A stretch of 64,000 nucleotides of DNA, from contig JAYPTH010000005.1 of assembly GCA_038133485.1 (NCBI GenBank), forward strand, positions 247 through 64,246, written 5' to 3'. This DNA is from Gammaproteobacteria bacterium (GTDB lineage: Bacteria; Pseudomonadota; Gammaproteobacteria; Magnimaribacterales; TMED112). A program made the position numbers and the translations under genes. Positions within the stretch are counted from its first letter, which is position 1. Each line of letters begins with the position of its first letter. Below the pieces are notes generated by a model. The model was not told the origin of the DNA and made no database searches. It was given only the letters and a program-made list of their open reading frames with translations. Below are positions 47,967 through 61,139 of the stretch, piece by piece.

Positions 47967-49160
47967 ATGGATTACAAAAAACAACTGGAAATTATAAAAC
48001 AAGGTATTGATGAAATCATAGGTGAAGATGATCTTGTTAAAAAACTAAAAGCCAATAAAACTCTGACAATCAAGGTGGGATTTGACCCGACTGCACCTGA
48101 TTTACATTTAGGACATACCGTAATCCTTAGAAAAATGAGGCAATTTCAGGAGCTTGGACACAAGGTTATTTTTCTCATTGGAGATTTTACTGGTCGAATT
48201 GGAGACCCAAGTGGTAAGAATAAAACCAGACCTCCACTGACAGATAAAGAAATTAATGCCAATGCAAAAACTTACAAAGAACAAGTCTTTAAGGTGTTAG
48301 ATCCTAAAACAACTATAGTTGAATTCAATTCTAAGTGGGGTGATAAAATGTCTGCTGTAGATATGATTAAGCTCGCTGCTCAGTCTACTGTTGCCAGAAT
48401 GATTGAGAGAGATGATTTTTCAAAACGCTATAAAAATAATCAGCCTATATCAATTCATGAATTCTTGTATCCGCTAATGCAAGGTTATGATTCAGTAGAA
48501 TTAGCTGCTGACATTGAGCTGGGTGGCACTGATCAAAAATTTAATCTTTTAGTTGGAAGAGATCTCCAGAGAAACAGTAATCAAGATCCCCAAACAATCA
48601 TTACACTTCCATTGCTTGAAGGTCTAGATGGCGTTAAAAAAATGTCAAAAAGTGAGCAAAATTATATTGGCATAACCGAAAATGCAGATGAAATATTTGG
48701 GAAGACAATGTCTATTCCAGATGAAATTATGTTCAAGTGGTTTGATCTTCTTAGTTTGCGGCCACTAAAAGATATTAAGGGCCTATTGAAAAATATAGAG
48801 AGTGGAGCGAATCCAAGAGATGCCAAAATAGAATTAGCATTAGAACTCACTGAAAGATTTACTTCCAAAGAAGAGGCCGTGGTAGCAAAAGATAATTTCT
48901 TTAAAAAATTTGCCAAAAATGAATTACCAACAAACATAGAGGAAATAGAAATGTCATTTTGTGATGGTCAAGCATTCCCTAACATTCTTAAAGAGCTCAA
49001 AATGGTAGCGAGCACATCTGAGGCTTTGCGACTAATTAAACAAGGTGCAGTGAAAGTTAATCAAGAAAAAGTAGATTCTAAAGATTTTCAAATTGAGGCT
49101 AATAAGAAAACATTAATCCAAGTTGGAAAAAAGAAATTTGTCTATTTAAGTCTTATTTGA
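47967..49160 (+). CDS. tyrS: Tyrosine--tRNA ligase (type 2, TyrZ-like)
   Basis: HLGH and KMSKS class I signatures, [14 protein letters not shown]-terminal S4 domain. Confidence 0.94.
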
Positions 49161-49169
49161 GGAGAAATA

Positions 49170-50330
49170 ATGAGTAATAAAACATATGACTATTTAATTT
49201 TTGGTGCCAGTGGTTTTACGGGCAGATTGGTAGCGGAATATTTTCAAAATGAATATGGGAAAAATTTAAATTGGGCAGTTGCTGGTCGAAATCAATCAAA
49301 GCTTGAGGAAGTTTTGACTGAGATTGGAGCTAATGCTCCAATTGAAATTTTAGATTCTTCAGATGCGGCATCAATACATGCAGCGATATCGAAAACAAAA
49401 GTCTTGATAACAACAGTAGGCCCATATCAATTATATGGAAGTGATATTGTGAAAAAATGCGCTGAACTAGGAGTTCATTACGTGGATTTAAGCGGTGAAC
49501 CAGGTTGGATGCATTACATGCAAGAGCATCAATCGGTTGCCAAAGAGTCTGGAGCAAGAATTGTTCATAGCTGTGGTTTTGATTCAATACCATCAGACTT
49601 AGGTGTCTTTTTCTTGCAGCAAAAAGCAATAGAAAAATATGGTAAGCCATTTTTAACTGTGAAATGTGGAGTAAGATCGATGGTTGGTGAATTCTCTGGA
49701 GGCACGGCAGCTTCTTTGAATGCTACGCTTCAATCAATTAGAAAAGATCCAAATATGATCAATATCCTTATGAATCCATTTTCTTTAGCAGAGGGATTTG
49801 AGGGTCCAACTCAACCGGATGGCAATACAGTTATCTACGATGAAGACTTCAATCAATGGATGGCTCCTTTTATTATGGCGCCAATTAATACTAAAAACGT
49901 TCATAGATCAAATAAATTGCTCTCGCATCTATATGGTAAAGACTTAATTTATAGTGAAATGATGATGGCCGGTGACGGTGACAAGGGTAAAGAGACGGCG
50001 GATTTTATTGCTTCAGTGAATCCTTTGATGGGGGAAAATGTTCCCAAGCCAGGTGAGGGCCCTTCAAAAGAATCGCGAGAAGCTGGAAGCTACGATTTGG
50101 TTTTTCTTGGAGTAGATGAAACTAATAAAATGCAAGTTGCAGTAAAAGGAAATCTAGATCCTGGTTATGGCTCAACATCAAAAATGATTGCCGAAAGTGG
50201 GATATGTTTGCTTGAGGATTGTGCAGATCTTCCTGGAGGTATTTACACCACAGCACCAGCAATGGGCAATAAGCTAATTGCTCGCTTAGAGGCGCATGAT
50301 GTTATGCATTTCACAGAAGAAATAATTTAG
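49170..50330 (+). CDS. Saccharopine dehydrogenase-like NAD(P)-binding oxidoreductase
   Basis: YDYLIFGASGFTGRLVAEY Rossmann N-terminus and CGFDSIPSDLG motif typical of the family. Confidence 0.75.
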   Translation: MSNKTYDYLIFGASGFTGRLVAEYFQNEYGKNLNWAVAGRNQSKLEEVLTEIGANAPIEILDSSDAASIHAAISKTKVLITTVGPYQLYGSDIVKKCAELGVHYVDLSGEPGWMHYMQEHQSVAKESGARIVHSCGFDSIPSDLGVFFLQQKAIEKYGKPFLTVKCGVRSMVGEFSGGTAASLNATLQSIRKDPNMINILMNPFSLAEGFEGPTQPDGNTVIYDEDFNQWMAPFIMAPINTKNVHRSNKLLSHLYGKDLIYSEMMMAGDGDKGKETADFIASVNPLMGENVPKPGEGPSKESREAGSYDLVFLGVDETNKMQVAVKGNLDPGYGSTSKMIAESGICLLEDCADLPGGIYTTAPAMGNKLIARLEAHDVMHFTEEII

Positions 50331-50404
50331 CTTTAAAAAAATTTTGCAAAATTGTTACAGTTTTAATATTGCATAAATCACCTTAATTATTGCAGCATTT
50401 ATCT

Positions 50405-51601
50405 ATGAAAATTCATAGATTTCTTATTGCTTGCTTATCACTAATTTTCCTTAGTTCTTGTGGTGGTGGAAATGGTTCTGAAACACCAGCCCCAACACCA
50501 GCCCCAACACCAGCCCCAACACCAGCCCCAACACCAGCCCCTGAACCAAAGTATGATGCTTCTATTTTTGTTCCTGAAGGAGAGACAAAAGGTTACATTG
50601 GATTCTTATTCCACAAGGATGCCAGTAACGCTGGATGCTTATCAACAATAAAACTAGATTTGACCAATGACAATGGCTTTTTAGCTGCAAATCAACTTTT
50701 AGCAAACGAATGGCGTTACATTGCCTACTTTGATGATGAAGGTAATGGTTTTGATAGTTATGAGGGCAACTCCTCAAATACTGGCATAAGGCTCGGTGAC
50801 AATTTCATAACAAGCGAGGGCGATGACCCTGGAATCGATTACGAAATTGCTTTGGTGGATTCAAACCTCAATGGTATAGAAATCAATGAAGGTGACTTCA
50901 ACCCCTACACCTTTGAAGGTAGCCCTGGTGATTTAGCAGTTTTTTCTGCCGATTTTTATCTTGAAACTACAGAAGAGCATTACTGTCAGCCAAGCCTTGA
51001 AATGGGCATAATGGCAGTCCCAGGCTCATCCCCAGATGACGATGATGAAGTTTTCATTGGAGCCACAGATAGCTTCGATGGCTATACATTTCTCTACCTA
51101 GTTTCGCAAGATTGGTGGACAAGTAATACAGAAAATTTGCCAGATGAGTCAGATTTATTTGGTATAAATTATTACGGTCTCAATATTTTCACTTCATACA
51201 AATCCTCCGCAAATATTACTGAATCTGGTCTTGGAATTAGAGTTAAACCAGATTTGATCACCGAAGTTAATAATGCCTCCAGCCAAGTTGAGCAAACTAT
51301 GGTTGGTTCAAGATTTACTGATGCTATTGAATCAGATAGTGAAACTTGGTTTGTTGATGATTATTTTACCAAGTATCTATTTGAAGGAGAATCTTGGTCC
51401 TCTCAAAGGGTTTTTCTGAAAGGAGACAATACAACCGATTGTTATTTTGAAGAAACCAGTGGTTATAGCTGTCAATACGGTGCCTTGTATATTCATTTTC
51501 TCTCTCCTGATAAGGAGCTTTTATTTGGTTTTTCATTGGGAGGATATGATGGAGCAGTCGAAACAACTTTTACACAAGTTTATTTTAATAACGACGATTA
51601 G
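50405..51601 (+). CDS. Acidic lipoprotein with (TPAP)5 linker, function unknown
   Basis: Signal/lipobox MKIHRFLIACLSLIFLSSCGGG, then ETPAPTPAPTPAPTPAPTPAPEP, then a ~350-aa Asp/Glu-rich body with no motif I recognise. The ATG at 50405 is preferred over the TTG at 50390. Confidence 0.75.
   Translation: MKIHRFLIACLSLIFLSSCGGGNGSETPAPTPAPTPAPTPAPTPAPEPKYDASIFVPEGETKGYIGFLFHKDASNAGCLSTIKLDLTNDNGFLAANQLLANEWRYIAYFDDEGNGFDSYEGNSSNTGIRLGDNFITSEGDDPGIDYEIALVDSNLNGIEINEGDFNPYTFEGSPGDLAVFSADFYLETTEEHYCQPSLEMGIMAVPGSSPDDDDEVFIGATDSFDGYTFLYLVSQDWWTSNTENLPDESDLFGINYYGLNIFTSYKSSANITESGLGIRVKPDLITEVNNASSQVEQTMVGSRFTDAIESDSETWFVDDYFTKYLFEGESWSSQRVFLKGDNTTDCYFEETSGYSCQYGALYIHFLSPDKELLFGFSLGGYDGAVETTFTQVYFNNDD
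50483..50542 (+). repeat. 12-nt tandem repeat x5 (ACACCAGCCCCA) encoding the (TPAP)n linker
   Basis: Four perfect copies plus one with a terminal T, in frame with the lipoprotein ORF. Confidence 0.95.
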
Positions 51602-51679
51602 AAACCTAACATACTAAACTGCAATACTCTTAACAGATGCATTTTCAAGCACGTAATCAATGTTTAACAAAAGTTCACA

Positions 51680-51700
51680 TTTGTAACAACTTGTTACAAA
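51680..51700. promoter_or_regulatory. 21-nt perfect palindrome, candidate operator upstream of the large lipoprotein gene
   Basis: TTTGTAACAA-C-TTGTTACAAA lies 70 nt upstream of the ATG at 51770. The half-site TTGTTACA recurs at 50352-50359 upstream of the first lipoprotein gene. A near-copy TTTGTCACA sits at 54812-54820 upstream of the TonB-dependent receptor. Confidence 0.5.
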
Positions 51701-51769
51701 TCTTCAGCAATAAGTAACAAAAAAGTCATATTCATCCATTAATTTTTCAGACTATAACTAGGAGAAGTT

Positions 51770-54739
51770 ATGAAATTAACTAAAACACTTGTAATTATAT
51801 TCTCTACTCTTTTCGTTGCTGCCTGTGGCGGTGGTGGAAGTTCATCTCCTGAACCAACACCAGCCCCAACACCAGCTCCAACACCGGCCCCAACACCAGC
51901 CCCAACACCAGCTCCAACACCGGCCCCAGAGTCTTGTTTGGTTGGTGCAGATACAGGAGTCACTACTCAGGATCTCGATGGCATTTCTAAGAAAGTCTGT
52001 GTATTAACATTCCCAGAAACTGCACCAATAACAGGTGATGTTACCTTGAGTAATGATGCTATATATGCCCTAAATGGTGCGGTATATGTTGGAAACGGAA
52101 TTGGTGAAGATGGTAGTGATGCTGGCGCTGATGGTAACCTTACGATCGAAGCCGGTACAACAATTTCAGGAACAGCTGGTGCAGGCTTTGAAAATGCCAC
52201 AGCATGGGTAACAGCTCTTAATGAGGGCGCAGCGGATGTAGAAGTCTCAGATTCAGACGTAGATTATCTAGTAGTGAAGCCTGGTTCTAAAATATTTGTT
52301 GAAGGAAGTTCATCTGCACCAGTGATAATGACAGGTGCAAGTGATTTGACTGGTGAAGTTAGAGATGGCTCGGAAGCTCAATGGGGCGGACTAGTTATTT
52401 CAGGCTTAGCAACACAAAATAAATGTAATGAAGCTGATTTAGGCACTGCCTCTTGCGTTGCAAATGGTGAAGGTGCTTCAGGATATTATGGTGGTACTGA
52501 CGATGCAGATAGCTCCGGTTCTATTGAATATCTTCAAGTGAAATATGCTGGTTACAAGTTTTCAAATGAGGACGAATTAAACGGTATTGCATTTCAAGCT
52601 GTGGGTTCAGGAACAGTGCTTGATTACATACAGGTTCACAATGGCTCAGACGATGGAATTGAGTTTTTTGGTGGCACAGCTGGCATTAAACATTTTGTAG
52701 TGACTGGTGCATCTGACGATTCTTTAGATTGGACCGATGGTTGGAGAGGTTTTGCCCAGTATGGTGTAATAGTTCAGACACTTTTCCCTGCTACAGATTC
52801 TAGTCGTAGCAAAGATAATGTCATTGAAGCTGATAATTATGGCTCAGATATGGACAGGGCACCAAGGTCTTTTCCAAAGATAGCAAACATAACCATGGTT
52901 CAAGATTATGGTGGTGATACTTTGCTACTAAGGGAAGGTACAGGTGCTTACATCTTAAATTCAATTGTTGCTGGAAACCCTGACGATTCAAGTTATTGCT
53001 TGGATGTGGATGACAATGAAACATATCGTTTTGCTGGAACAGCTGGGAACATGACCAATATAAGTTTTGATGGATCTATTTTTGATTCAGTCAAATGTAG
53101 TGCCATGGCTGCATCTAAAGGGTGGGTTGATCCATCCTCAGCTGATGAAGGTGATGATGTATTTGATATCGGAGCTGAGCTTGAAAATCTAGATTCAGTT
53201 CAGTTTGCTGCAACAGGCCTACATGGCTCAAAGAGGAATGCAGCTTATTTGTCTCATCCACTCGTAAATTCTTACTATGTAGAAAAAGTCGCTAACGCAA
53301 ATATTCTTGACTCAAACCTTGTAACGGAAGATTTTATTGGTGGTGTTAAAAGCGATGCAGAAGATTGGACTAAAGGTTGGACATATGGGTTGCATATCTC
53401 CAATTCAGATATGCAAGACTTTTGCCCATTTGGAACAGCTTTAACAACAATTAAAGACGATGGTGGTGCTGCATGTGAAATTACAGCATCGCAAGCAGCT
53501 GAAAACAATATCAGGCTTGTTGGCGGCGGTCTGCCTTATGTCATGAAAGGCAAGCTTGTTGTTGGTGATGGCACAGCTGAAGGTGCACAATACTTGCAAA
53601 TTGATCCAGGTGTCACAGTCTACAGCGATCAAGTTGCAGGCGAAGGCTCTTTAACAGATCTGGATTACGTTGTAGTTCCAACTTATTCAAAAATCTTGGT
53701 CAACGGTGCCCCAGGAGCACCAGTAACCTTTACATCAAGCAGAGAGGTTAGAACTTCTGGCGATAGTTCCAGCTCAACATTGTCCAAAGAAACAACCAAT
53801 GATTGGGGAGGCCTGGTTATTAATGGTCTGGCATCGCAGAATAAATGCAACATCAGTGATATCGGAACAGCTGCATGTACTGCTGATGGTGAAGGAGCTT
53901 CAGGAAGCTATGGTGGTACCAATGATGCCGATAACAGTGGCAACATATTCTACGGAGTTGTGAAATATGCCGGAAGAAAATTTAACAATGAAGACGAACT
54001 AAATGGTGTCGCTTTCCAAGCCGTCGGCAATAAGACTGAAATTGATTATCTGCAAACTTTCAATACTTCAGATGATGGAGTGGAATTCTTCGGAGGTACA
54101 GTCAATGCAAAACACCTATTGGTTATGAGTGCATCTGATGATTCTATAGACTGGACAGATGGATGGCGCGGGAAAGTTCAGCACGCTATTGTATGGCAAA
54201 ATCAGGGACAAGAATTTGCTGTGGACAGGTCAATAGAAGCTGATAACTATGGGTCCGATATGGACAGAACTCCAAGATCCATGCCAATGTTTGCCAACTT
54301 AACAATAGTTAGCCAAGATGGTCAGGCAGTGCTCTTAAGAGAAGGAACAGGACTGCACATCTTTAACTCTGTCGTGGCAGACGAAGGTGCCAGCACATGT
54401 TGGGATATAGATGATGATACCACTTACGATTTCAATGCCGATGGTGTGGCTGGTGAAGGACATGTTTATGATGGGAACTTATTCTCTTGCGCAACATTAG
54501 CACAAGAAGATTCAAGTGGACCATCAATTGCTCAAATTGAAGCTTTATTGTCATCCAATACTAATACAGCTTCAGCAGGTGGTGGATCACTATCTGGTTA
54601 CTGCAATGGAAGTGTTGAGTCAGGGCTTACTCCTGTAGCAATTGACGATGCATTTTTTGATGCTACAGACTATGTTGGAGCTTGTGCATCAGCGGAAACC
54701 GATTGGACTCTAAATTGGGCGTTTAAACCATCTGAATAG
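51770..54739 (+). CDS. Large lipoprotein with (TPAP)6 linker and two homologous ~450-aa modules, function unknown
   Basis: AGGAG RBS and lipobox FSTLFVAACGGGG. Both halves share WGGLVI.GLA.QNKCN..GTA.C.A.GEGASG.YGGT.DAD.SG.I.Y..VKYAG.KF.NEDELNG.AFQAVG..DY.Q...SDDG.EFFGGT...KH..V..ASDDS.DWTDGWRG...EADNYGSDMDR.PRS.P..AN.T. Confidence 0.8.
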   Translation: MKLTKTLVIIFSTLFVAACGGGGSSSPEPTPAPTPAPTPAPTPAPTPAPTPAPESCLVGADTGVTTQDLDGISKKVCVLTFPETAPITGDVTLSNDAIYALNGAVYVGNGIGEDGSDAGADGNLTIEAGTTISGTAGAGFENATAWVTALNEGAADVEVSDSDVDYLVVKPGSKIFVEGSSSAPVIMTGASDLTGEVRDGSEAQWGGLVISGLATQNKCNEADLGTASCVANGEGASGYYGGTDDADSSGSIEYLQVKYAGYKFSNEDELNGIAFQAVGSGTVLDYIQVHNGSDDGIEFFGGTAGIKHFVVTGASDDSLDWTDGWRGFAQYGVIVQTLFPATDSSRSKDNVIEADNYGSDMDRAPRSFPKIANITMVQDYGGDTLLLREGTGAYILNSIVAGNPDDSSYCLDVDDNETYRFAGTAGNMTNISFDGSIFDSVKCSAMAASKGWVDPSSADEGDDVFDIGAELENLDSVQFAATGLHGSKRNAAYLSHPLVNSYYVEKVANANILDSNLVTEDFIGGVKSDAEDWTKGWTYGLHISNSDMQDFCPFGTALTTIKDDGGAACEITASQAAENNIRLVGGGLPYVMKGKLVVGDGTAEGAQYLQIDPGVTVYSDQVAGEGSLTDLDYVVVPTYSKILVNGAPGAPVTFTSSREVRTSGDSSSSTLSKETTNDWGGLVINGLASQNKCNISDIGTAACTADGEGASGSYGGTNDADNSGNIFYGVVKYAGRKFNNEDELNGVAFQAVGNKTEIDYLQTFNTSDDGVEFFGGTVNAKHLLVMSASDDSIDWTDGWRGKVQHAIVWQNQGQEFAVDRSIEADNYGSDMDRTPRSMPMFANLTIVSQDGQAVLLREGTGLHIFNSVVADEGASTCWDIDDDTTYDFNADGVAGEGHVYDGNLFSCATLAQEDSSGPSIAQIEALLSSNTNTASAGGGSLSGYCNGSVESGLTPVAIDDAFFDATDYVGACASAETDWTLNWAFKPSE
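51857..51928 (+). repeat. 12-nt tandem repeat x6, organised as a 36-nt unit x2, encoding the (TPAP)n linker
   Basis: The unit ACACCAGCCCCA ACACCAGCTCCA ACACCGGCCCCA is repeated twice exactly. It uses the same 12-mer and the same codon phase as the repeat at 50483-50542. Confidence 0.95.
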
Positions 54740-54774
54740 CCTTTGTATAAATCCCTTTAATTATTGAGTCCGTA

Positions 54775-54799
54775 CTGCCCCGAAAGGGGCAGTTTTTTT
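54775..54799 (+). terminator. Rho-independent terminator
   Basis: CTGCCCC-GAAA-GGGGCAG stem-loop (7 GC-rich bp, GNRA-type tetraloop) followed by TTTTTTT, 36 nt after the lipoprotein stop. Confidence 0.85.
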
Positions 54800-54852
54800 A
54801 TTCTTAACCTATTTGTCACATTATTGATTCAAAAGCTGTGTACTCTTAAACC

Positions 54853-57396
54853 GTGAAAACTTATTTAAAAATTGCACTCCTCCTCGCTTCCACTTTTTTA
54901 TTTGCCCAGGAAAGCGATACAGAAATTAACACTGAAACAATAGAGGACGTTGTAGTTTCTGTCAGCTTTATCCCTGATGAGAAAAGAGATACTAGTGAGA
55001 TTTCCAATGTTCTTTCTTCAGAGGATATGACTTTAGCTGGAGATAGTGCAGCATCAGATGCTCTTAAAAGGGTTACAGGTTTAAGTTTGGTAAAGGGAAA
55101 ATACGTATATGTTAGAGGCTTAGGTGAGCGTTACTCATCTGCTTTACTCAATGGTGTATTACTACCAAGCCCAGAACCTCTTAAACGTGTTGTACCTTTT
55201 GATATTTTTCCAACCTCAGTGCTAGAAAGTGTTCTAGTACAAAAAACTTACTCTGCTCAATATCCAGGAGAATTTGGTGGTGGAGTTATTGATATGAGAA
55301 CAAAATTGATACCAGATTCCAAATTTTATGAATTTGGCATCTCCTTTGCCTATGATTCTCTTGCAACGAACACAAATGCACCTTTAATGCCGGGATTTAG
55401 CGGCGACTGGAGCGGCTATGATGATGGGTCTAGAAACTTACCTTCAAGCCTGCAGCCATTTTACGCAAATGGGGATTTTGTTTCACTCTCCAATGGGTCA
55501 TATGCTGAATTAACCACGGCAGGACAAAATTTTGGTGGCGAATGGATGCCGGTTGATTCAAAGTTAAACCCAGCTTTAGGCTTGAATTTTAGCTATGGCA
55601 ATTCTTTCGATTTTAACTTTGGCAAGGTTGGCATTGTTTTAAGTGGGGGATACGATAACGACTCCTCCAATACCCCAGACATCAAAAGAACAAATTATGC
55701 TAGAGGCTCAAATAATAATTTGGTTTCAAGAGACACTTATGATGTGCAAAAAACAAACAACCAAATAGACACAAATATTTTAACTTCTATTGGATGGGAT
55801 ATCGATGGAATGAATTACTTGCAACTTACTAACTTGCTAGTTAGGAAGACCGATAACAGATTAACTTTAAGTGAAGGCAAGAATGTTGAGGCTGATTTTT
55901 TTGCAAAAAGTACAAAATTTGAGTGGGTGGAGAGACAAATTAATTCCCTAACCCTCTCAGGAAATCATGATTTCAATTTTGGATTGTATATTGATTGGAG
56001 AATAGGGCATGCCGATGGGAAGCGAGTAGCCCCATTCGAAAGAGAATATTTCTATGAATGTGAAGAATCCTTCATTGAAAATTGTGGTGGAAAATATGAA
56101 TTTTCACGTCGTTCTGATAGTAATTCAACACAATTTTCATGGCTTAATGATGATGCAACTGAGGTTGCCATAGATTTCACGTATCCTTTCCAATCTACAT
56201 CTAATGAGCTGGAACTAAGGTTTGGTGTTAAGCAGTCCACTAAAGAACGACAAACTGATGTAAAAAGATACCGATTTTTACCAGATTTTGTGAATGGCTC
56301 ATTGTTTTCTTCACAAGATTTTCGAAGACAAACCATTGATAAAATTATGGCTTCAGAAAATTTCAGACTAGATAGATCTGGATTAATTTTATTAGAAGAA
56401 ACACTTAATACCGATAACTACGAAGGGAGTTTGACAATTGATGCAGCGTATATCTCTTTAGAAACAACATTAAATGATAACCTCGAAATCACTACTGGTT
56501 TTAGATCAGAAAATTCTGATATTGAGGTAACAACACAAACTTACTTTGGGGGATTAAATTCAGCTGTATCAGCCGACGAGCTTAATAAAGTATTGCCTGC
56601 TTTAACTGCAACCTACAGCTTTAACGATAGTATGCAGCTGAGGTTTGGCTATAGTGAAACATTATCAAGACCACAATTTAGAGAAATGAGCCCCGTTCTT
56701 TATGTCAATTTTGATACTGACAGGCTCGAAAGAGGCTTCCTTGGCTTAAAATCTTCTGAGATAACTAATTTGGACTTACGTTACGAATGGTATTTTGGGT
56801 TCAATGAATCTTTAACTCTGTCATTTTTCAACAAAGATTTTATAAACCCAATTGAACAAGTTCTTGAAGCAGCAGCAACTAGCGATTATGTGAGTTACCG
56901 TAATGCACAGTCAGCAGAACTTAATGGTGTAGAGTTTGAGGTTGAAAAACAACTTGGAGAGCTAATAACTGGATATGATTTTTTTGTTAAGTTTAACTAT
57001 ACCCTGACAGAATCAAATGCAGTCACCAATCCAGAGTTCGTAGTTTTGTCTTCCTATGACGACAGACCTTTGGTGGGTCAGCCTGAGGATATTGTTAATT
57101 TTCAATTTGGATATTACGGCGCCAATGATACTCAGCTGAGCCTCAACTACAACGATGTTGGTGAAAGAATAAGAGAGCTTGGCACAGATGTCATTCCAAA
57201 TGTTACCGAAGATCTACCACCATTGCTTGACTTAGTTTTTAGCAAGGAAATACAAGCCTGGGATGGCACATTAGATCTATCAATCAAATGGAGAAATATT
57301 CTTGAAGATCAGTACGAAGCGTTACAAGGCAGTGAAGTATTTGAATCTTATTCTTCTAGTTCTGCTATTTCATTTGGTTTGAAATATAGCTATTAA
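54853..57396 (+). CDS. TonB-dependent outer membrane receptor
   Basis: Signal peptide ...LFAQE, TonB-box-like EDVVVSV, plug region (RVTGLSLVKGKYVYVRGLGERYS), long beta-barrel, terminal aromatic ...GLKYSY. GTG start. Confidence 0.9.
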   Translation: MKTYLKIALLLASTFLFAQESDTEINTETIEDVVVSVSFIPDEKRDTSEISNVLSSEDMTLAGDSAASDALKRVTGLSLVKGKYVYVRGLGERYSSALLNGVLLPSPEPLKRVVPFDIFPTSVLESVLVQKTYSAQYPGEFGGGVIDMRTKLIPDSKFYEFGISFAYDSLATNTNAPLMPGFSGDWSGYDDGSRNLPSSLQPFYANGDFVSLSNGSYAELTTAGQNFGGEWMPVDSKLNPALGLNFSYGNSFDFNFGKVGIVLSGGYDNDSSNTPDIKRTNYARGSNNNLVSRDTYDVQKTNNQIDTNILTSIGWDIDGMNYLQLTNLLVRKTDNRLTLSEGKNVEADFFAKSTKFEWVERQINSLTLSGNHDFNFGLYIDWRIGHADGKRVAPFEREYFYECEESFIENCGGKYEFSRRSDSNSTQFSWLNDDATEVAIDFTYPFQSTSNELELRFGVKQSTKERQTDVKRYRFLPDFVNGSLFSSQDFRRQTIDKIMASENFRLDRSGLILLEETLNTDNYEGSLTIDAAYISLETTLNDNLEITTGFRSENSDIEVTTQTYFGGLNSAVSADELNKVLPALTATYSFNDSMQLRFGYSETLSRPQFREMSPVLYVNFDTDRLERGFLGLKSSEITNLDLRYEWYFGFNESLTLSFFNKDFINPIEQVLEAAATSDYVSYRNAQSAELNGVEFEVEKQLGELITGYDFFVKFNYTLTESNAVTNPEFVVLSSYDDRPLVGQPEDIVNFQFGYYGANDTQLSLNYNDVGERIRELGTDVIPNVTEDLPPLLDLVFSKEIQAWDGTLDLSIKWRNILEDQYEALQGSEVFESYSSSSAISFGLKYSY

Positions 57397-57786
57397 ATGA
57401 AAAGTGTCTTATTTGTTTGTGTAGAAAATGCTTGTAGAAGTCAGCTGGCTGAAGCAATAAGCAATAGTTATTACGGCTATGCACTACAAGCATCCTCCGC
57501 TGGCTCAAGACCCGCTGACAGAGTTAACCCTAAAGCTATTTCATCTTTATTGCGCTTGGGATTAAGCATAGAGCCTAACCAGCCTAAAGATGTCAAAACT
57601 TATGAAAATGACCACTTTGACTATGTGGTAACGATGGGTTGCGGAGATAAGTGTCCTCATATCCCTGGAGCTATAGTATTTGATTGGCAAATACCAGATC
57701 CAAAGCATATGTCGGATAGTGATTTTGATGCAATAAGAGATTTGATTGATTTAAAAATTCAATCAGAGTTAATATCAGATGCTTAA
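57397..57786 (+). CDS. arsC: Arsenate reductase, low-molecular-weight phosphatase type
   Basis: P-loop VLFVCVENACRSQLAE (CX5R-S) and downstream Cys pair MGCGDKCP. The ATG immediately follows the receptor's TAA stop. Confidence 0.8.
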   Translation: MKSVLFVCVENACRSQLAEAISNSYYGYALQASSAGSRPADRVNPKAISSLLRLGLSIEPNQPKDVKTYENDHFDYVVTMGCGDKCPHIPGAIVFDWQIPDPKHMSDSDFDAIRDLIDLKIQSELISDA

Positions 57787-58411
57787 ACAATTGATAGCAG
57801 AATTATTTGGAACAGCTTTGCTTGTAAGTGTTGTGATCGGATCTGGCATTATGGCTGAACGACTCGCAGCTGGTAATGAGGCGGTCATGCTTTTAGCAAA
57901 TAGTTTTGCTACTTTTCTTGGGTTGTTTTTCTTGATAACTATACTGGGCCGCATAAGTGCACAATTTAACCCGGTTGTCTCAATGGTTATGTTGCTTGAG
58001 AAAAAAATTTCTAATGCTCAATTCTTATTATTTAGCTTATTCCAGATCCTTGGTGCCTTGGTTGGGGTAGTTATGACAAATTTTATGTTTGACCTAGACC
58101 CCATTTCACTGGCTCAAAAATCAAGATATGGAGTAAATTTATGGGTTTCTGAAATCATAGCTACTGCAATGTTAATTATTGTGATTCTCTCTTCTCCTCC
58201 AAAAAAAGTTGCAATTATGGTTGCGTCATTTATTGGCGCTGCCTATTGGTTCACCTCTTCAACATCCTTTGCCAATCCTGCAGTTACGTTTGGAAGAATG
58301 TTTTCAGATACTTTTACAGGCATTTATGCTTTTGATGCTCTTTATTTCATGCTTGCACAAATACTTGGTGCAATTTTAGGTTTATTTTTTTACCGTTATC
58401 TCTGGAAATAA
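57779..58411 (+). CDS. MIP-family channel (aquaglyceroporin/AqpS-like)
   Basis: Six TM helices with FNPVVS and ANPAVTFGR half-helix motifs. 210 aa. Overlaps arsC by 8 nt. Confidence 0.82.
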   Translation: MLKQLIAELFGTALLVSVVIGSGIMAERLAAGNEAVMLLANSFATFLGLFFLITILGRISAQFNPVVSMVMLLEKKISNAQFLLFSLFQILGALVGVVMTNFMFDLDPISLAQKSRYGVNLWVSEIIATAMLIIVILSSPPKKVAIMVASFIGAAYWFTSSTSFANPAVTFGRMFSDTFTGIYAFDALYFMLAQILGAILGLFFYRYLWK

Positions 58412-58412
58412 T

Positions 58413-59993
58413 CTAATCTACTTTCCCAGGACCATAAAGTACCCTTCCGGGTTTTGAAAGATTGTGAACTCCATCACTTACAACAATTTGTCCATTTACT
58501 ATCACATACTCAACTCCTGTTGAATATTGGTGGGGAGCTTGAAAGGTTGCATTATCAGAAATCTTCTCAGGGTTAAAAATAGTAATGTCAGCATAATAAC
58601 CTTCTTTAATTAATCCTCTTTTATTGAGTGATATGATTTTGGCAGGCAGGGAAGTCATTTTTCTAATAGCCTCTTCTAGACTTATGACATTGCTTTCTCT
58701 TACATATTTGCCAAGAACTCTCGGAAAGGTGCCATAGGATCTTGGATGTGGTCTGCTTTCGCCAAAAGGCATTAGTGGTCCATCTGAAGCAATAGCAGCA
58801 TTCGGATGTTGCATAATAAATTTAACATCATCATCACTGATCGCATGAAATACTGCTCGTGCATAACCACCTTCAATAATTTCAAAGACCGTCTCTGCAG
58901 CATTTTCAGGTGTGGCTTCTAGACCTTTTGCAATTGTTATTTCAGCAAGATTTTTGCCTTCAAGAGAGGTGTCCCATTTGGCTTCAGAAATCACTACATT
59001 TTTTGGATTTCCCCCACCACGATCGAAAAGTATTTTTCTTATAACCTCCTCTTTGATCTGATTACGTGTTTGTTGATTATTTAGTCGATCTAACAAAGCT
59101 TTTCTTCCTCCAGCTTGGGCCCATTGAGGTATTAAAGCCGTAATACTGGTTTGGGATGCGGTATAAGGATATTGATCAAGATAGACTATATGACCATTTT
59201 TATTTGCCTCATCAACCAATGCTAATGTCTTAGATGACATACCCCAATTTTCTTTGCCTATAACTTTATGATGAGTGATATGAGCTGGCAAATTGCCAGC
59301 AATCCCTATATCAATTGTTTCAGTGACAGAATCTAGAATCTTATCGGCTTCATCACGCATATGAGATATATAAATTCCACCGCTCGAACCTACAATCTTT
59401 GCAAGTTCGATTATTTCTTCCTTAGAGCTAAAATTTCCAGGCACATAAAATAAACCTGATGAGAGACCTAGAGCCCCCTCATCCATTGCCTCTTGAGTTA
59501 ACCGTTTCATTTTCTCTAACTCAGCATCTGTTGGTAGTCTATTTTCTAAACCCATAACTGCTTCCCTTATGGTGCCCTGACCAATAAAAACAGCCCAATT
59601 TGGCGTTATACCGGTTTGTTCAATTTTTTGATAATGTTCTCCAATAGGAAAAGGTGAGCTACCATCATTTCCATCAGTTAAAGTAGTAACACCTTGATAA
59701 ATGAATGCTTCTGCAGTGGGAACTTCAAAAATACCACGCACTGCATGGGTATGGACATCTATGAAACCAGGAGCAACTATTAAATTGCTAACATCTATAT
59801 TTTCTTTTGCTTGAAAATTTTTTAACTCACCAATACTTACTATTTTGTCATCTTTGATACCAATATCAGTTTGATACTTAGGGCTGCCACTGCCATCAAT
59901 AATTACTCCATTTCTAATAATCAAGTCATATTCAGGTTGATCTGAACATGATGAAACAATTATAAAAATAGCGAAAAGTAAGATTTTTTTCAT
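58413..59993 (-). CDS. N-acyl-D-amino-acid deacylase family amidohydrolase, lipoprotein
   Basis: Lipobox FIIVSSCS, PGFIDVHTHA metal motif, D-aminoacylase-like insert and C-terminal GYYADITIF..VNG. Confidence 0.82.
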   Translation of the reverse strand: MKKILLFAIFIIVSSCSDQPEYDLIIRNGVIIDGSGSPKYQTDIGIKDDKIVSIGELKNFQAKENIDVSNLIVAPGFIDVHTHAVRGIFEVPTAEAFIYQGVTTLTDGNDGSSPFPIGEHYQKIEQTGITPNWAVFIGQGTIREAVMGLENRLPTDAELEKMKRLTQEAMDEGALGLSSGLFYVPGNFSSKEEIIELAKIVGSSGGIYISHMRDEADKILDSVTETIDIGIAGNLPAHITHHKVIGKENWGMSSKTLALVDEANKNGHIVYLDQYPYTASQTSITALIPQWAQAGGRKALLDRLNNQQTRNQIKEEVIRKILFDRGGGNPKNVVISEAKWDTSLEGKNLAEITIAKGLEATPENAAETVFEIIEGGYARAVFHAISDDDVKFIMQHPNAAIASDGPLMPFGESRPHPRSYGTFPRVLGKYVRESNVISLEEAIRKMTSLPAKIISLNKRGLIKEGYYADITIFNPEKISDNATFQAPHQYSTGVEYVIVNGQIVVSDGVHNLSKPGRVLYGPGKVD

Positions 59994-60044: not shown

Positions 60045-61139
60045 ATGAGACATTTTTTTATAACATTTTTTATTTTTTTATTATGTGAATTCCTAGCGTC
60101 AGAGGATTTTAAATACAACCAAATTGGTAAAGCACAAAAAGATCCTTGGAGTTTGGCATTTATAGATGAGGACAGATTTTTATTATCTGATTTATCGGGT
60201 GAGTTATCGGTTATCTCATTATCATCTGGAGAAAAGCTTTACAACTTAAAAGGTGTACCTGAGGTCGCTTATGGTAGTCAAGGCGGGCTGTCAGATGTAA
60301 AAGTTGATCCAGATTTTGCTAACAACAGTTACGTTTATTTAACATACTCAGCTAAGGATGCTGATCAGAATAATGCAGTCACCTTATTTGTTGGTAAAGG
60401 CGAATTAGTTGATGATGAGTTAAGAAATTTCACTGTAATTTTTAAAGCAATTGCTCCAAGAAGAGTGCCAGTTCATATGGGGGCAAAGATGGCATTTCTT
60501 TCAGATTCGACACTGTTAGTTACAAGTGGTGATGCTTATGATAAAAGAGAGAAGGCTCAGACCTTAGATAATCACTACGGCAAAATTATACGTATAAACC
60601 TCGATGGCAGCGTACCAGAAGATAACCCATTTATCGGGCAAGAGGGAGCTTTACCAGAGATTTACAGTTATGGTCACAGAAATATGCAGGGTTTATTGGT
60701 TTTGTCTGATGGGACGATAATCGAGCACGAGCATGGCCCCAGAGGTGGCGATGAATTAAACATTATTGAGCCGGGGAAAAACTATGGATGGCCAGCTATT
60801 TGCTATTGCATTGACTATTCAGGCGCATCAATAACACCTTTCACAGAAAAAGAGGGCATGGAACAACCGCTAAAATATTGGCGCCCATCAATTGCCCCTT
60901 CAGGGTTTATTTTTTATAACAGTGATTACTTTCCTGAATGGAATGGACATTTTTTTGTTTCAGCTTTAGCTGCAAAAGATGTAAGAAAACTTAACATTCA
61001 GGGTAATCTGGTTAAAGAGGAAATCTTATTCTCTGATTTAGAAGCCAGAATTAGAAATATTTACCAAACTCCCAAAGGATCACTCCTTTTGCTAGTTGAT
61101 GGCCCTGATGGCAGATTAATTGAAGTAACCAAACAGTGA
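60045..61139 (+). CDS. PQQ-dependent soluble sugar (glucose/sorbosone) dehydrogenase-like beta-propeller
   Basis: Signal peptide followed by GHRNMQGL, HEHGPRGGDELN and KNYGWP motifs of the YliI/sorbosone dehydrogenase family. Confidence 0.82.
   Translation: MRHFFITFFIFLLCEFLASEDFKYNQIGKAQKDPWSLAFIDEDRFLLSDLSGELSVISLSSGEKLYNLKGVPEVAYGSQGGLSDVKVDPDFANNSYVYLTYSAKDADQNNAVTLFVGKGELVDDELRNFTVIFKAIAPRRVPVHMGAKMAFLSDSTLLVTSGDAYDKREKAQTLDNHYGKIIRINLDGSVPEDNPFIGQEGALPEIYSYGHRNMQGLLVLSDGTIIEHEHGPRGGDELNIIEPGKNYGWPAICYCIDYSGASITPFTEKEGMEQPLKYWRPSIAPSGFIFYNSDYFPEWNGHFFVSALAAKDVRKLNIQGNLVKEEILFSDLEARIRNIYQTPKGSLLLLVDGPDGRLIEVTKQ

What the first reader, a model, noticed from the sequence alone, without database searches (positions are those of the whole stretch)
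50340..57396. Accessory-looking nutrient-capture locus: two PT-linker lipoproteins plus a TonB-dependent receptor, with no recognisable substrate-defining enzyme
- **Context.** The locus is embedded between housekeeping genes (tyrS and an oxidoreductase upstream).
- **Gene set.** It contains a 398-aa acidic lipoprotein, a 989-aa lipoprotein and an 847-aa TonB-dependent receptor.
- **Lipoprotein features.** Both have a lipobox Cys followed by Gly (not Asp), which suggests outer-membrane sorting. Each then has a long, flexible (TPAP)n tether. That architecture is typical of surface-exposed substrate-binding lipoproteins that hand ligands to TonB-dependent transporters, such as SusD/SGBP-like or TbpB-like partners.
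- **Unknown function.** I recognise neither lipoprotein body as a known family. The recurring SDDG.EFFGG / ASDDS.DWTDGWRG / EADNYGSDMDR motifs suggest a repeated beta-solenoid or carbohydrate/metal-binding fold.
- **Assessment.** This is the best candidate in the window for an undescribed functional system: a lipoprotein-assisted TonB uptake module of unknown substrate.
Basis: partly seen in the sequence, partly recalled or inferred. Interest (0 to 1): 0.65.

Follow-up and report, generated by a model that had tools for sequence, protein, structure and literature searches.

The report
SAR86 ElpS-type lipoprotein with TonB receptor
The large lipoprotein and the TonB-dependent receptor are the SAR86 version of a widespread gene pair (Caulobacter ElpS/CC0171 type) that other bacteria switch on when starved of phosphate and whose cargo is still unknown, while the small lipoprotein is an unrelated strain-specific insertion.

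Summary
All three genes exist as described. They do not form one three-part system, and the core is not undescribed.

- **Large lipoprotein.** The 989-aa protein consists of two tandem ~440-aa right-handed beta-helix modules. It belongs to the Beta_helix_4 (PF28492) family.
- **Conserved pair.** In 73 of 80 genomes from several phyla, a homologue of this gene lies directly beside an orthologous TonB-dependent receptor.
- **Phosphate link.** About 27 of those loci also carry phoB and/or phoR. Pho boxes are strongly enriched upstream of the pair. Other loci carry a TonB2-type energiser, or a type II secretion system arranged as in Caulobacter elpS-cc0171-gspC…N.
- **Published relatives.** ElpS (Caulobacter) and FI/FII/FIII (Flavobacterium johnsoniae) are surface or exported lipoproteins induced by low phosphate. 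Their biochemistry is unknown.
- **SAR86 features.** The conserved block is lipoprotein – terminator – receptor – arsC – aquaglyceroporin. There is no phoBR and no canonical Pho box, only enriched Pho-like half-sites.
- **Expression.** In one metatranscriptome study the lipoprotein mRNA is far above the receptor (word depths 60–440x vs 3–23x). In four other runs it is at background.
- **Small lipoprotein.** The 398-aa protein is missing from three syntenic SAR86 genomes. Where longer contigs are available (three of the four homologue contexts examined) its relatives lie beside a phage-type integrase.

Verdict: a new member of a known but unsolved family, of moderate interest.

The parts
50405..51601 (+). 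Small acidic lipoprotein (398 aa; lipobox Cys19; PT linker). It is a strain-specific insertion and not part of the conserved module. Function unknown.
   Evidence: Sequence. The gene is absent from syntenic L001, L007 and L008, and an empty-site joint 50320->51670 appears in run X5. The family has 17 word-search homologues and about a dozen 50%-identity clusters matching the body domain. Relatives lie beside a phage-type integrase in three of the four contexts examined. The AF2 model is unusable (pLDDT 42.6). The body is unrelated to the large lipoprotein.
51662..51729 (+). Promoter-proximal array of Pho-box-like half-sites (GT[ACT]A[CT]). It includes GTAAC-N6-GTCAT at 51714-51729 with 11-nt register and an AAAA-rich spacer. 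Candidate PhoB-type operator, not proven.
   Evidence: There are 5 half-sites in 168 nt on the coding strand (P=0.002 against 2000 dinucleotide shuffles). Similar enrichment occurs in L007, L001 and L008. L001 has CTGTAACAAAAGTGTCAC, which by my count matches the consensus at 10 of 14 positions. The aligned element is conserved in L007. The best full-box match in the window is only 8/14. The half-site pattern was chosen after looking at the sequence.
51770..54739 (+). ElpS-type / Beta_helix_4 lipoprotein, 989 aa. It has a signal peptide and lipobox (Cys19, codon 51824-51826), a PT linker (residues 27-53), beta-helix module 1 (about residues 57-545, 51938-53404) and module 2 (about residues 546-989, 53405-54736).
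   Evidence: Sequence and repeats. More than 743 homologues were found, and all those listed carry precomputed PF28492 Beta_helix_4. AF2 gives pLDDT 76 and pTM 0.71. Foldseek returns only generic right-handed beta-helices. The acidic ladder is invariant in both modules: D294 D295 E298, D316 D317 D320, E353 D355 and R388, matched by D768 D769 E772, D790 D791 D794, E823 D825 and R857.
54774..54800 (+). Intrinsic terminator between the lipoprotein gene and the receptor gene. It acts as an attenuator that uncouples their expression levels.
   Evidence: The stem has 8 pairs (6 G-C), a GAAA loop and a T7 tail. In runs X1-X3 the word depth falls here from 160-440x to 3-23x, and contigs end at 54714-54771.
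54853..57396 (+). Cognate TonB-dependent receptor (847 aa), an orthologue of the receptors that flank Beta_helix_4 genes elsewhere (CC0171 type).
   Evidence: Plug and barrel domains. TIGR01782 scores 203 bits, below its 310-bit cutoff. It is 31-33% identical over its full length to the receptors next to the homologues in Halioglobus, Kordiimonas and L006, while unlinked receptors in those loci give no hit. A profile of these receptors finds one at 226-1296 bits (98-400 for the few cut by contig or ORF ends) in 73/80 loci. No PDB sequence relative was found.
57397..57786 (+). ArsC-type arsenate reductase (LMW-PTP fold, CX5R loop). It starts directly after the receptor's stop codon.
   Evidence: Pfam LMWPc match. 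The top 15 PDB hits include 14 arsenate reductases, the best being 3t38 at E 1.6e-23. All NCBIfam arsenate-reductase models score below cutoff. The position is conserved in L001, L007 and L008.
57779..58411 (+). Small MIP-family channel (210 aa) overlapping arsC by 8 nt. It is a probable AqpS-like arsenite outlet.
   Evidence: Pfam MIP match at E 4e-18. Conserved after arsC in three other SAR86 genomes. The arsenite role is inferred from the known aqpS-arsC pairing in Sinorhizobium (own knowledge).

Best explanation
**What it is.** The 989-aa protein is a two-module member of the ElpS / Beta_helix_4 family, and the 847-aa protein is its dedicated TonB-dependent transporter. Together they form a self-contained outer-membrane capture-and-import module. 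In most lineages this module belongs to the phosphate-starvation (PhoB) regulon.

**Proposed mechanism.**
1. The lipoprotein is acylated at Cys19.
2. It is held away from the membrane by the Pro/Thr tether and exposed at the cell surface. It may be shed.
3. Each beta-helix module carries a row of invariant Asp/Glu residues on successive rungs plus an Arg. This row probably holds divalent cations and, through them, an anionic phosphorus-bearing ligand. The ligand could be a polymer, a colloid or an ester.
4. The ligand, or a fragment cut from it, is passed to the receptor and pulled into the periplasm with TonB energy.

**SAR86 specifics.** The lipoprotein gene is transcribed on its own and ends at a strong terminator. 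It can therefore be made in large excess over the transporter. The receptor gene is fused in one operon with arsC and an aquaglyceroporin, which fits a need to dispose of arsenate that enters along with phosphate-like cargo.

**Shown here.** Family membership by homology, the fold, the conserved receptor partner, the phoBR / Pho-box / TonB2 / T2SS contexts in relatives, the terminator, and conditional high expression.

**Inferred.** Surface exposure, phosphate control in SAR86, the nature of the ligand, the hand-over to the receptor, and the arsenate rationale.
For: **Homology and fold.**
- More than 743 homologues were found, all those listed carrying PF28492.
- The model shows two beta-helix modules.

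**Partner receptor.**
- A receptor lies immediately beside the homologue in Halioglobus, Kordiimonas, L006 and L001 although the flanking genes are unrelated.
- An orthologous receptor is present in 73/80 loci across Gamma- and Alphaproteobacteria, Bacteroidota, Bdellovibrionota and Myxococcota.

**Phosphate link.**
- phoB and/or phoR lie next to the pair in about 27 loci, in at least six different arrangements. pstS lies between phoR and the pair in Alteromonas-type loci.
- The identities were confirmed with NCBIfam: PhoB 310 bits against a 296 cutoff, and PhoR 572 bits against a 390 cutoff.
- Matches of >=11/14 to CTGTCATNNNNCTGTCAT occur upstream of 34/79 pairs, against 50/1518 control windows. 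Matches of >=12/14 occur in 13/79 against 10/1518.

**Literature.**
- ElpS (CC0170) with the receptor CC0171 lies upstream of gspC-N. ElpS is induced by phosphate starvation, palmitoylated, proteinase-K accessible and released in a T2SS-dependent way (PMC2996285).
- The elpS promoter depends on PhoB (PMC5172544).
- F. johnsoniae FI/FII/FIII are ElpS relatives. FI and FII lie beside low-Pi TBDTs, and FII sits in the phoBR operon (PMC8115612).
- The same gene orders appear in my Hyphomonas and Kordiimonas loci and in my Flavobacteriaceae loci.

**SAR86.**
- The block tyrS-oxidoreductase-lipoprotein-receptor-arsC-MIP is conserved in L001, L007 and L008.
- Pho-like half-sites are enriched upstream.
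- A terminator follows the lipoprotein gene.
- The lipoprotein mRNA stands at 60-440x against 3-23x for the receptor in runs X1-X3, but at background in X5, X10, X11 and X13.
Against: - The window has no phoB, phoR or pstS and no canonical Pho box (best match 8/14).
- Whether this SAR86 genome has PhoB at all could not be checked, because the genome search was shut.
- Identity with ElpS rests on the Pfam family label of the homologues and on synteny with published descriptions. A direct alignment to CC0170 could not be made.
- Purified ElpS had no phosphatase activity (PMC2996285), and no ligand is known for any family member.
- The receptor's nearest NCBIfam subfamily is TIGR01782, which as far as I know is mostly linked to carbohydrate uptake. 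The fold is the one used by many polysaccharide-active enzymes.
- Contig word depth is a poor measure of expression, and the conditions of the high-expression samples are unknown.
- The half-site pattern was defined after inspecting the sequence.
Confidence: 0.65

Rival explanations
1. The pair is a carbon-scavenging locus. The beta-helix lipoprotein would be a surface polysaccharide lyase, hydrolase or glycan binder, and the receptor would import the oligosaccharides. This would resemble the CUT loci of Xanthomonas and Caulobacter, with no special link to phosphorus in SAR86.
For: - The best Foldseek matches are two-domain PL6 alginate lyases (7o7t, 7dmk, 5gkd, E about 4e-4). GH87, GH55, tailspike depolymerases and AlgG follow.
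- The receptor's best NCBIfam model is TIGR01782.
- There is no canonical Pho box and no phoBR in the window.
- The DD / DD / E ladder on successive rungs recalls GH28-type active sites (own knowledge). Lidbury et al. also noted homology models on polygalacturonase (PMC8115612).
Against: - No CAZy-type Pfam family matches, and the structural hits are generic (TM 0.1-0.3).
- The recurrent-neighbour clustering of the 80 loci found no recurring neighbour family beyond phoBR, pstS, the TonB2 energiser and T2SS genes. Only ten cluster representatives were inspected or named.
- Pho boxes are enriched about 13-fold upstream of the pair.
- ElpS and FI-FIII respond to phosphate. ElpS does not respond to iron or ammonium supply (PMC2996285), and the F. 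johnsoniae low-Pi loci stay tightly repressed under N and Fe limitation (PMC8115612).
Confidence: 0.12
2. The lipoprotein is not a transport partner. It would be an extracellular helper that activates or stabilises a separate secreted phosphatase, as proposed for ElpS. The neighbouring receptor would work independently, for example as a sensor or as an importer of an unrelated compound.
For: - Overproducing ElpS raised supernatant pNPP hydrolysis although pure ElpS was inactive.
- cc0171 is expressed constitutively and is not needed for ElpS production (PMC2996285).
- In the window a strong terminator separates the two genes, and their transcript levels differ by well over tenfold.
Against: - The two genes stay adjacent on the same strand in 73/80 loci across phyla, while all other neighbours change.
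- The receptors form one orthologous group that tracks the lipoprotein.
- Such strict linkage is hard to explain without a physical or pathway interaction.
- In many loci a dedicated TonB2-type motor is attached to the pair.
Confidence: 0.1
3. Both PT-linker lipoproteins and the receptor would form one three-component uptake system of a so far undescribed kind.
For: - The genes are adjacent on the same strand.
- They share the lipobox-GGG-(TPAP)n design, with near-identical linker DNA.
- A TTGTTACA word lies upstream of both genes.
Against: - The small gene is missing in L001, L007 and L008 and in run contigs.
- Its relatives are never next to a receptor. In three of the four contexts examined they lie beside a phage-type integrase.
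- Its body was not detectably transcribed when the large gene was at 60-440x.
- The large lipoprotein and receptor pair is already described (PMC2996285, PMC8115612).
Confidence: 0.03

Closest known systems
ElpS (CC0170 / CCNA_00169) with TonB-dependent receptor CC0171, Caulobacter crescentus (Le Blastier et al. 2010, PMC2996285; PhoB dependence shown in PMC5172544)
   Same: - Both are lipoproteins with a lipobox and no classical domain hit.
- Both lie immediately upstream of a TonB-dependent receptor on the same strand.
- In both, the lipoprotein is expressed separately from, and far above, the receptor.
- The alphaproteobacterial relatives of the window's protein (Hyphomonas, Kordiimonas, Maricaulis) have the published order: prepilin peptidase - lipoprotein - receptor - gspC - gspD.
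   Different: - The window's protein has two modules (989 aa) instead of one (about 50 kDa) and carries a long PT tether.
- There is no type II secretion system, phoBR or canonical Pho box in the 64-kb window.
- The receptor is fused in an operon with arsC and a MIP channel.
FI / FII / FIII low-phosphate lipoproteins and their TBDTs in Flavobacterium johnsoniae (Fjoh_3856/3857, Fjoh_0546/0545, Fjoh_4889; Lidbury et al. 2021, PMC8115612)
   Same: - These are ElpS-related pectin-lyase-fold lipoproteins beside TonB-dependent transporters.
- They are among the most abundant proteins made under phosphate depletion.
- The order phoR-phoB / TBDT / lipoprotein is the one seen in my Flavobacteriaceae loci L062 and L067.
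- Their function is also unknown.
   Different: - They come from Bacteroidota, where the receptor precedes the lipoprotein.
- They are embedded in phosphate utilisation clusters with phosphodiesterases, which the SAR86 locus lacks.
Hemophore/receptor and surface-lipoprotein/receptor systems (HasA-HasR, TbpB-TbpA, SusD-SusC)
   Same: The working logic is shared: an abundant exposed or released binding protein captures a scarce ligand and hands it to a TonB-dependent transporter. As with hemophores, the binder is made in excess.
   Different: The fold is entirely different: a beta-helix, as opposed to the HasA alpha/beta fold, the TbpB barrel-handle lobes and the SusD TPR-like helices. No ligand is known, and the interaction with the receptor has not been shown.
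Two-domain PL6 alginate lyases (AlyGC 5gkd, Patl3640 7o7t, BcAlyPL6 7dmk)
   Same: Both have two tandem right-handed beta-helix domains in one chain. These are the best Foldseek hits. In PL6 enzymes acidic residues in the groove bind Ca2+ (own knowledge).
   Different: E-values are only about 4e-4 with 7-9% identity. There is no PL6 Pfam hit and no PDB sequence hit. In this family both modules keep the conserved ladder.
aqpS-arsC arsenate detoxification pair of Sinorhizobium meliloti (own knowledge)
   Same: An LMW-PTP-type arsenate reductase is encoded next to an aquaglyceroporin. The reductase would make arsenite, which leaves through the channel.
   Different: There is no arsR or arsH here. 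The pair is appended to a TonB-dependent receptor gene with zero spacer, an arrangement I found only in SAR86.

Membership tests
ElpS / Beta_helix_4 (PF28492) lipoproteins | Sequence membership in Pfam PF28492 | tested here: met
   The local Pfam copy lacks the model (0 hits). However, every listed homologue carries the precomputed PF28492 label, including those at 92%, 71% and 38% identity over 88-100% of the length.
ElpS / Beta_helix_4 (PF28492) lipoproteins | Right-handed parallel beta-helix fold | tested here: met
   The AF2 model has pLDDT 76 and pTM 0.71, with short strands in regular rungs in both halves. All 50 Foldseek matches listed are beta-helix proteins.
ElpS / Beta_helix_4 (PF28492) lipoproteins | Direct sequence similarity to Caulobacter ElpS (CC0170) | not tested
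   No tool gave access to the CC0170 sequence. Similarity is inferred from matching synteny in Hyphomonas and Kordiimonas loci and from PMC2996285 Fig. 1 as described in its text.
ElpS / Beta_helix_4 (PF28492) lipoproteins | Lipoprotein signal peptide | tested here: met
   The N-terminus reads FVAAC19-GGGG. A lipobox-like motif occurs in 76 of 120 homologues; the others have Sec signals.
ElpS / Beta_helix_4 (PF28492) lipoproteins | Adjacent cognate TonB-dependent receptor (CC0171 type) | tested here: met
   The receptor starts 114 nt downstream of the lipoprotein gene. An orthologous receptor is adjacent in 73/80 loci.
ElpS / Beta_helix_4 (PF28492) lipoproteins | Induction by phosphate starvation through PhoB | tested here: inconclusive
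   Pho boxes and phoBR are found in relatives. In SAR86 there are only enriched half-sites and one 11-nt-spaced pair. Expression is conditional, but under unknown conditions.
ElpS / Beta_helix_4 (PF28492) lipoproteins | Neighbouring type II secretion system that mediates release | tested here: not met
   No gspC, gspD or prepilin peptidase was found in the 64-kb window. The T2SS is adjacent only in the alphaproteobacterial loci, so it is not a universal feature of the family.
SusC/SusD-like (SGBP) systems | SusD-fold lipoprotein and a SusC-type receptor with an N-terminal carboxypeptidase-regulatory-like domain | tested here: not met
   The lipoprotein is a beta-helix. The receptor shows only the Plug and barrel domains.
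TbpB/LbpB-type surface lipoproteins | Bilobed barrel-plus-handle fold | tested here: not met
   The fold is a beta-helix. There is no PDB sequence match.
Polysaccharide lyase PL6 / glycoside hydrolase GH28 | Sequence match to the family model and its catalytic motifs | tested here: not met
   No Pfam hit at E<=0.01. No PDB hit with the single sequence or with the profile. Only a weak, generic structural resemblance was found.
TonB-dependent receptors | Plug domain plus 22-strand barrel domain | tested here: met
   PF07715 at E 8.6e-10 and PF00593 at E 3.4e-24. TIGR01782 subfamily membership is not met (203 bits against a 310-bit cutoff).
ArsC (LMW-PTP type) with AqpS-like channel | LMW-PTP fold with a CX5R loop, nearest relatives being arsenate reductases, and an adjacent MIP channel | tested here: met
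   The sequence contains C8-VENAC-R14. Of the top 15 PDB hits, 14 are arsenate reductases. The MIP domain is present. NCBIfam equivalog cutoffs are not reached, so the coupling type (thioredoxin or glutaredoxin) is open.

The most novel reading that the evidence does not exclude
The ElpS-type modules may act as a 'phosphophore'. In this reading they are abundant, tethered or shed proteins whose cation-loaded acidic ladders capture inorganic phosphate species (orthophosphate, polyphosphate or colloidal Ca/Fe-phosphate) at nanomolar levels. They would then deliver the cargo to a TonB-dependent transporter. That would be the first energised outer-membrane uptake route for inorganic phosphorus.

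The SAR86-specific fusion of the receptor gene with arsC and an arsenite channel would then be the signature of a route that cannot fully exclude arsenate.
Probability: 0.12. Interest if true: 0.8.

Novelty: new member of a known kind. Interest (0 to 1): 0.4.

Why it matters
SAR86 is one of the most abundant heterotrophs of the surface ocean, where phosphorus is often limiting. This family is widespread in marine bacteria and can be among their most highly expressed genes. Its ligand is still unknown about 16 years after ElpS was described.

The SAR86 copy adds three usable clues:
- a tandem, fully conserved double module;
- strong conditional transcription that is uncoupled from the receptor by a terminator;
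- an operon link between the receptor and arsenate detoxification.

Solving the ligand would define a new route of marine phosphorus acquisition. As it stands, this locus is another member of an already recognised family, not a new system.

Tried and rejected
- **Family and PDB searches on the lipoproteins.** Pfam, NCBIfam and PDB sequence searches gave nothing beyond low-complexity linker hits. A profile search of the PDB gave nothing either.
- **Small lipoprotein structure.** The AF2 model has pLDDT 42.6 and was not used for a fold search.
- **Small lipoprotein relatives.** The exhaustive profile search was swamped by an Ig-like domain that the window's copy lacks. Only about a dozen clusters match the body.
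- **PHROGs.** The small lipoprotein gave no hit.
- **Receptor.** No PDB sequence relative was found.
- **PF28492 in the literature.** The search returned no papers.
- **Sequences in supplements.** No ElpS or Fjoh sequence text was found in the PMC8115612 supplements.
- **Own-genome search for PhoB.** The tool was shut, so I could not test whether this SAR86 genome has phoBR, or what its pstS promoter looks like.
- **Rfam.** No RNA family was found in 49000-59000.
- **Window-wide searches.** No phoB, phoR, pstS, T2SS or TonB2 energiser genes were found.
- **SusD-like or TbpB-like partner.** Rejected on fold.
- **The '21-nt perfect palindrome' upstream of the large gene.** I first considered it the operator of an unknown dimeric repressor. 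I now read it as two adjacent Pho-like half-sites (TTGTAAC / TTGTTAC), because L007 and L001 keep phased direct half-sites but not the palindrome.

Full report
**1. What is in the sequence**

- a small lipoprotein at 50405-51601 (398 aa from the ATG; a TTG at 50390 would give 403 aa);
- a 989-aa lipoprotein at 51770-54739;
- an 847-aa TonB-dependent receptor at 54853-57396, with Plug and barrel domains.

Both lipoproteins have Cys19 in a lipobox, then GGG, then a (TPAP)n tether. tyrS and a saccharopine-dehydrogenase-type oxidoreductase lie upstream.

The unit continues downstream. An ArsC-type reductase gene begins right after the receptor's stop codon (57397), and a 210-aa MIP channel gene overlaps it by 8 nt. 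The best PDB relative of the reductase is arsenate reductase 3t38 (E 1.6e-23), and 14 of its top 15 PDB hits are arsenate reductases.

An intrinsic terminator lies between the large lipoprotein gene and the receptor gene. It has an 8-bp stem with 6 G-C pairs, a GAAA loop and a T7 tail, at 54774-54800. No Rfam family matches in 49000-59000.

**2. The large lipoprotein**

It consists of two tandem modules of about 440 aa that are 41% identical (E 2e-94).

The local Pfam, NCBIfam and PDB sequence searches find nothing. The large protein database holds more than 743 relatives. Every listed one carries the newer Pfam family PF28492, named Beta_helix_4. Relatives have one, two or three modules. About two thirds have a lipobox and the rest have a Sec signal.

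An AlphaFold2 model built on 73 sequences has pLDDT 76 and pTM 0.71. Foldseek against the PDB returns only right-handed beta-helix proteins, and only weakly. Two-domain PL6 alginate lyases come first at E about 4e-4, followed by tailspikes, GH87, AlgG and NosD. The fold is therefore clear, but no solved relative exists.

The family alignment shows an invariant acidic ladder in both modules:
- D294 D295 E298, matched by D768 D769 E772;
- D316 D317 D320 W321, matched by D790 D791 D794 W795;
- E353 D355, matched by E823 D825;
- R388, matched by R857.

The first two groups are 22 residues apart, which is one helical rung. I read this ladder as a cation-binding or ligand-binding groove. That reading is an inference, because I had no access to the model's coordinates.

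**3. The conserved partner**

In four first look-ups the homologue is followed at once by a TonB-dependent receptor, while all other neighbours differ. These were a close SAR86 relative, Halioglobus japonicus, Kordiimonas gwangyangensis and an unnamed contig. These receptors are 31-33% identical to the window's receptor over their full length. Unlinked receptors in the same loci give no hit.

A scan of one genome per species found at least 576 relatives. Among the best 80 loci, a profile of the partner receptors finds an orthologue in 73 (226-1296 bits for full-length receptors, 98-400 for the few cut by contig or ORF ends). It sits directly beside the lipoprotein gene on the same strand in all but a few loci, where TonB-energiser genes or a ~3-kb gap intervene. 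Most of the seven exceptions end at a contig edge or have TonB-energiser genes next to the lipoprotein gene instead.

The loci span SAR86, Halieaceae, Alteromonas, Pseudoalteromonas, Colwellia, Rheinheimera, Pseudohongiella, Kordiimonas, Hyphomonadaceae, Maricaulis, Flavobacteriaceae, Saprospiraceae, Bacteriovoracaceae and Polyangia.

**4. What the neighbours say**

Clustering all flanking ORFs gave three recurrent contexts.

(a) phoB and/or phoR lie next to the pair in about 27 loci, in at least six arrangements:
- divergent in Rheinheimera;
- phoB-phoR-pstS-lipoprotein-receptor in Alteromonas and its relatives;
- lipoprotein-receptor-phoB-phoR in Pseudohongiella-type loci;
- phoR-phoB divergent from receptor-lipoprotein in Flavobacteriaceae;
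- two further arrangements in a Lysobacterales MAG and a deltaproteobacterial MAG.

NCBIfam confirms PhoB (310 bits, cutoff 296) and PhoR (572 bits, cutoff 390). The PstS-family match reaches 188 bits, below its 206.6-bit cutoff.

(b) A TonB2-type motor (DUF3450, TtpC-like, ExbB, ExbD, TonB, TPR protein) appears in about 17 loci.

(c) gspC-gspD lie downstream, often with a prepilin peptidase upstream, in about 18 alphaproteobacterial loci.

I then scanned the 300 nt upstream of each pair for the Pho box CTGTCATNNNNCTGTCAT.
- Matches of >=11/14 occur in 34 of 79 loci, against 50 of 1518 random windows from the same loci.
- Matches of >=12/14 occur in 13 of 79, against 10 of 1518.
- Most matches are in the gene's orientation. 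One example is CTGTCATAAAACAGTCAT in Rheinheimera.

In most lineages the pair is therefore a Pho-regulon member.

**5. Literature**

The alphaproteobacterial arrangement is the one published for Caulobacter crescentus: cc0170 (elpS) - cc0171 (TonB-dependent receptor) - gspC…N. The paper reports the same tandem in Hyphomonas neptunium, Xanthomonas and Sphingopyxis (PMC2996285).

ElpS is a ~50-kDa lipoprotein with these properties:
- it is made only under phosphate starvation, and neither iron nor ammonium supply affects it;
- it is palmitoylated and accessible to proteinase K on whole cells;
- it is released after cleavage before Asn38, in a T2SS-dependent way;
- overproduction raises supernatant phosphatase activity, but the purified protein is inactive;
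- cc0171 is expressed constitutively.

The elpS promoter depends on PhoB (PMC5172544). The Caulobacter PhoB regulon includes the T2SS and several TonB-dependent receptors (PMC11208175).

In Flavobacterium johnsoniae three ElpS-related pectin-lyase-fold lipoproteins (FI, FII, FIII) are strongly induced by low phosphate. FI and FII lie beside low-Pi TBDTs, and FII sits in the phoBR operon. FI makes up a large share of the exoproteome (PMC8115612).

My Flavobacteriaceae loci L062 and L067 have that same order.

I could not align the window's protein directly to CC0170. Membership in the 'ElpS family' therefore rests on PF28492 and on this double synteny. I put it at about 90%.

**6. The SAR86 locus itself**

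The window is from a SAR86 bacterium. L007 is a SAR86 MAG at 92% identity, and L008 is a SAR86 single-cell assembly at 62%. The order tyrS - oxidoreductase - lipoprotein - receptor - arsC - MIP is conserved in L001, L007 and L008. I saw the arsC-MIP appendage only in the SAR86 loci among the 80.

The window has no phoB, phoR, pstS, T2SS or TonB-motor genes, and its best full Pho-box match is 8/14.

Pho-like half-sites (GT[ACT]A[CT]) are nevertheless enriched on the coding strand upstream of the gene in all four SAR86 genomes. P values against dinucleotide shuffles are 0.002, 0.0005, 0.001 and 0.02. One pair in 11-nt register sits about 45 nt before the start codon:
- window: GTAACAAAAAAGTCAT;
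- L001: CTGTAACAAAAGTGTCAC, which by my count is 10/14.

This is suggestive only, because I chose the pattern after seeing the sequence. The genome search that could have shown whether phoB exists was shut.

**7. Expression in the sea**

Contigs from three metatranscriptome runs of one study (X1-X3) cover the lipoprotein gene at word depths of 60-440x and are 97-99% identical to the window. Depth drops at the terminator to 3-23x over the receptor, arsC and MIP. tyrS and the oxidoreductase are near zero.

In four runs from other studies the gene sits at 1-8x, level with its neighbours.

With the caveat that contig depth is a rough measure, this shows strong conditional induction of a largely monocistronic lipoprotein mRNA. 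It also shows weak, steadier expression of receptor-arsC-MIP. The pattern mirrors inducible elpS and constitutive cc0171 in Caulobacter.

**8. The small lipoprotein**

Its body is unrelated to the large one. It has only 17 close relatives and about a dozen 50%-identity clusters overall. Most relatives carry an extra Ig-like domain where the window's copy has the PT linker.

It is absent from L001, L007 and L008. A run contig joins 50320 to 51670, which is the empty site. Its body was not detectably transcribed in X1-X3.

Among the homologue contexts long enough to read, three sit two small genes downstream of a phage-type integrase: a 265-kb MAG contig (L002) and two ~6.7-kb contigs (L087, L088). 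A third short contig (L089) looks like a circular permutation of the latter two. A fourth context (L090) has no integrase. None of them is next to a receptor.

In L002 the gene two positions downstream of the homologue (445 aa) hits a phage family, phrog_4756.

The gene is a mobile-element cargo gene that landed in the promoter region of the ElpS-type gene. Its linker DNA is nearly identical to its neighbour's, possibly through gene conversion.

**9. How it most likely works**

I commit to a capture-and-import model with confidence 0.65.
1. The tethered lipoprotein may be shed.
2. It binds, and may cut, an anionic phosphorus-bearing ligand through its cation-loaded acidic grooves.
3. It feeds the ligand to its own TonB-dependent transporter.

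Several observations favour a stoichiometric binder over a classical enzyme:
- one to three intact modules per protein;
- expression far in excess of the transporter;
- the high abundance of the F. johnsoniae relatives in the exoproteome.

An enzyme is not excluded.

The receptor-arsC-MIP operon fits phosphate-like cargo that brings arsenate along. This is inference.

Rivals:
- a carbon-scavenging glycan module (0.12);
- a phosphatase helper without a transport role (0.10);

**10. Novelty**

This is a new member of a known but biochemically unsolved family. What is particular here is the SAR86 wiring: the terminator, the arsC-MIP fusion, and the absence of phoBR and T2SS nearby.

One weak run joint (50321->58410; one contig, 26-nt anchor, about 94% identity) hints that the whole 8-kb block may be a flexible island.

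Earlier notes of this scan, read after I had reached ElpS through the literature, describe the same family in other genomes. They agree with my reading but are not independent evidence.

Noticed in passing
L087:1-6680, L088:1-6680, L089:1-4557; L002:6934-13467: Relatives of the small lipoprotein sit in a recurring block: MazG-like / 287 aa / Arm-DNA-binding phage integrase / 107 aa / 132 aa / lipoprotein / 392 aa. The contigs look like circular permutations of one ~6.7-kb element. In L002 the gene two positions downstream of the lipoprotein homologue hits phrog_4756. This may be a small integrative element of marine Gammaproteobacteria.
   Followed up: partly
window 50321-58410: One metatranscriptome contig (X11; 26-nt anchor, about 94% identity) joins the end of the oxidoreductase gene directly to the end of the amidohydrolase gene. 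It skips the whole small-lipoprotein / ElpS-type / receptor / arsC / MIP block. This hints that the block is a flexible island in SAR86 populations. The evidence is weak.
   Followed up: no
window 50535 and 51853: A run contig (X5) joins the PT-linker of the small lipoprotein gene to the PT-linker of the large one, skipping 1317 nt. It is either a real recombinant between the near-identical 12-nt repeats or an assembly artefact.
   Followed up: no
L003:9596-9985 and L006:9585-9986: In Halioglobus japonicus and one other genome, the lipobox, acidic linker and first ~70 residues of the three-module homologues form a separate 129-133-aa ORF. It ends 15 nt before a Beta_helix_4 gene that has its own Sec signal. 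This is either a split gene or a two-protein variant.
   Followed up: no
window 57394-58411: The arsC-type reductase and a small MIP channel are appended to the receptor gene (TAAATG junction, then an 8-nt overlap) without arsR or arsB. The arrangement is conserved in three other SAR86 genomes, and among the 80 related loci I saw it only in the SAR86 ones.
   Followed up: partly
L027, L036, L039, L041, L044-L046, L056, L066, L074, L079, L085, L086: In Alteromonadales, Bacteriovoracaceae, Polyangia and others, the lipoprotein-receptor pair is joined to a complete TonB2-type motor (DUF3450, TtpC-like, ExbB, ExbD, TonB, TPR protein). This suggests a dedicated energiser for this receptor.
   Followed up: partly
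window 60045-61960: A soluble PQQ-type glucose/sorbosone dehydrogenase gene (GSDH, E 1.5e-114) overlaps a 274-aa ORF that has no family hit. The pair is conserved in L001 and L008.
   Followed up: no
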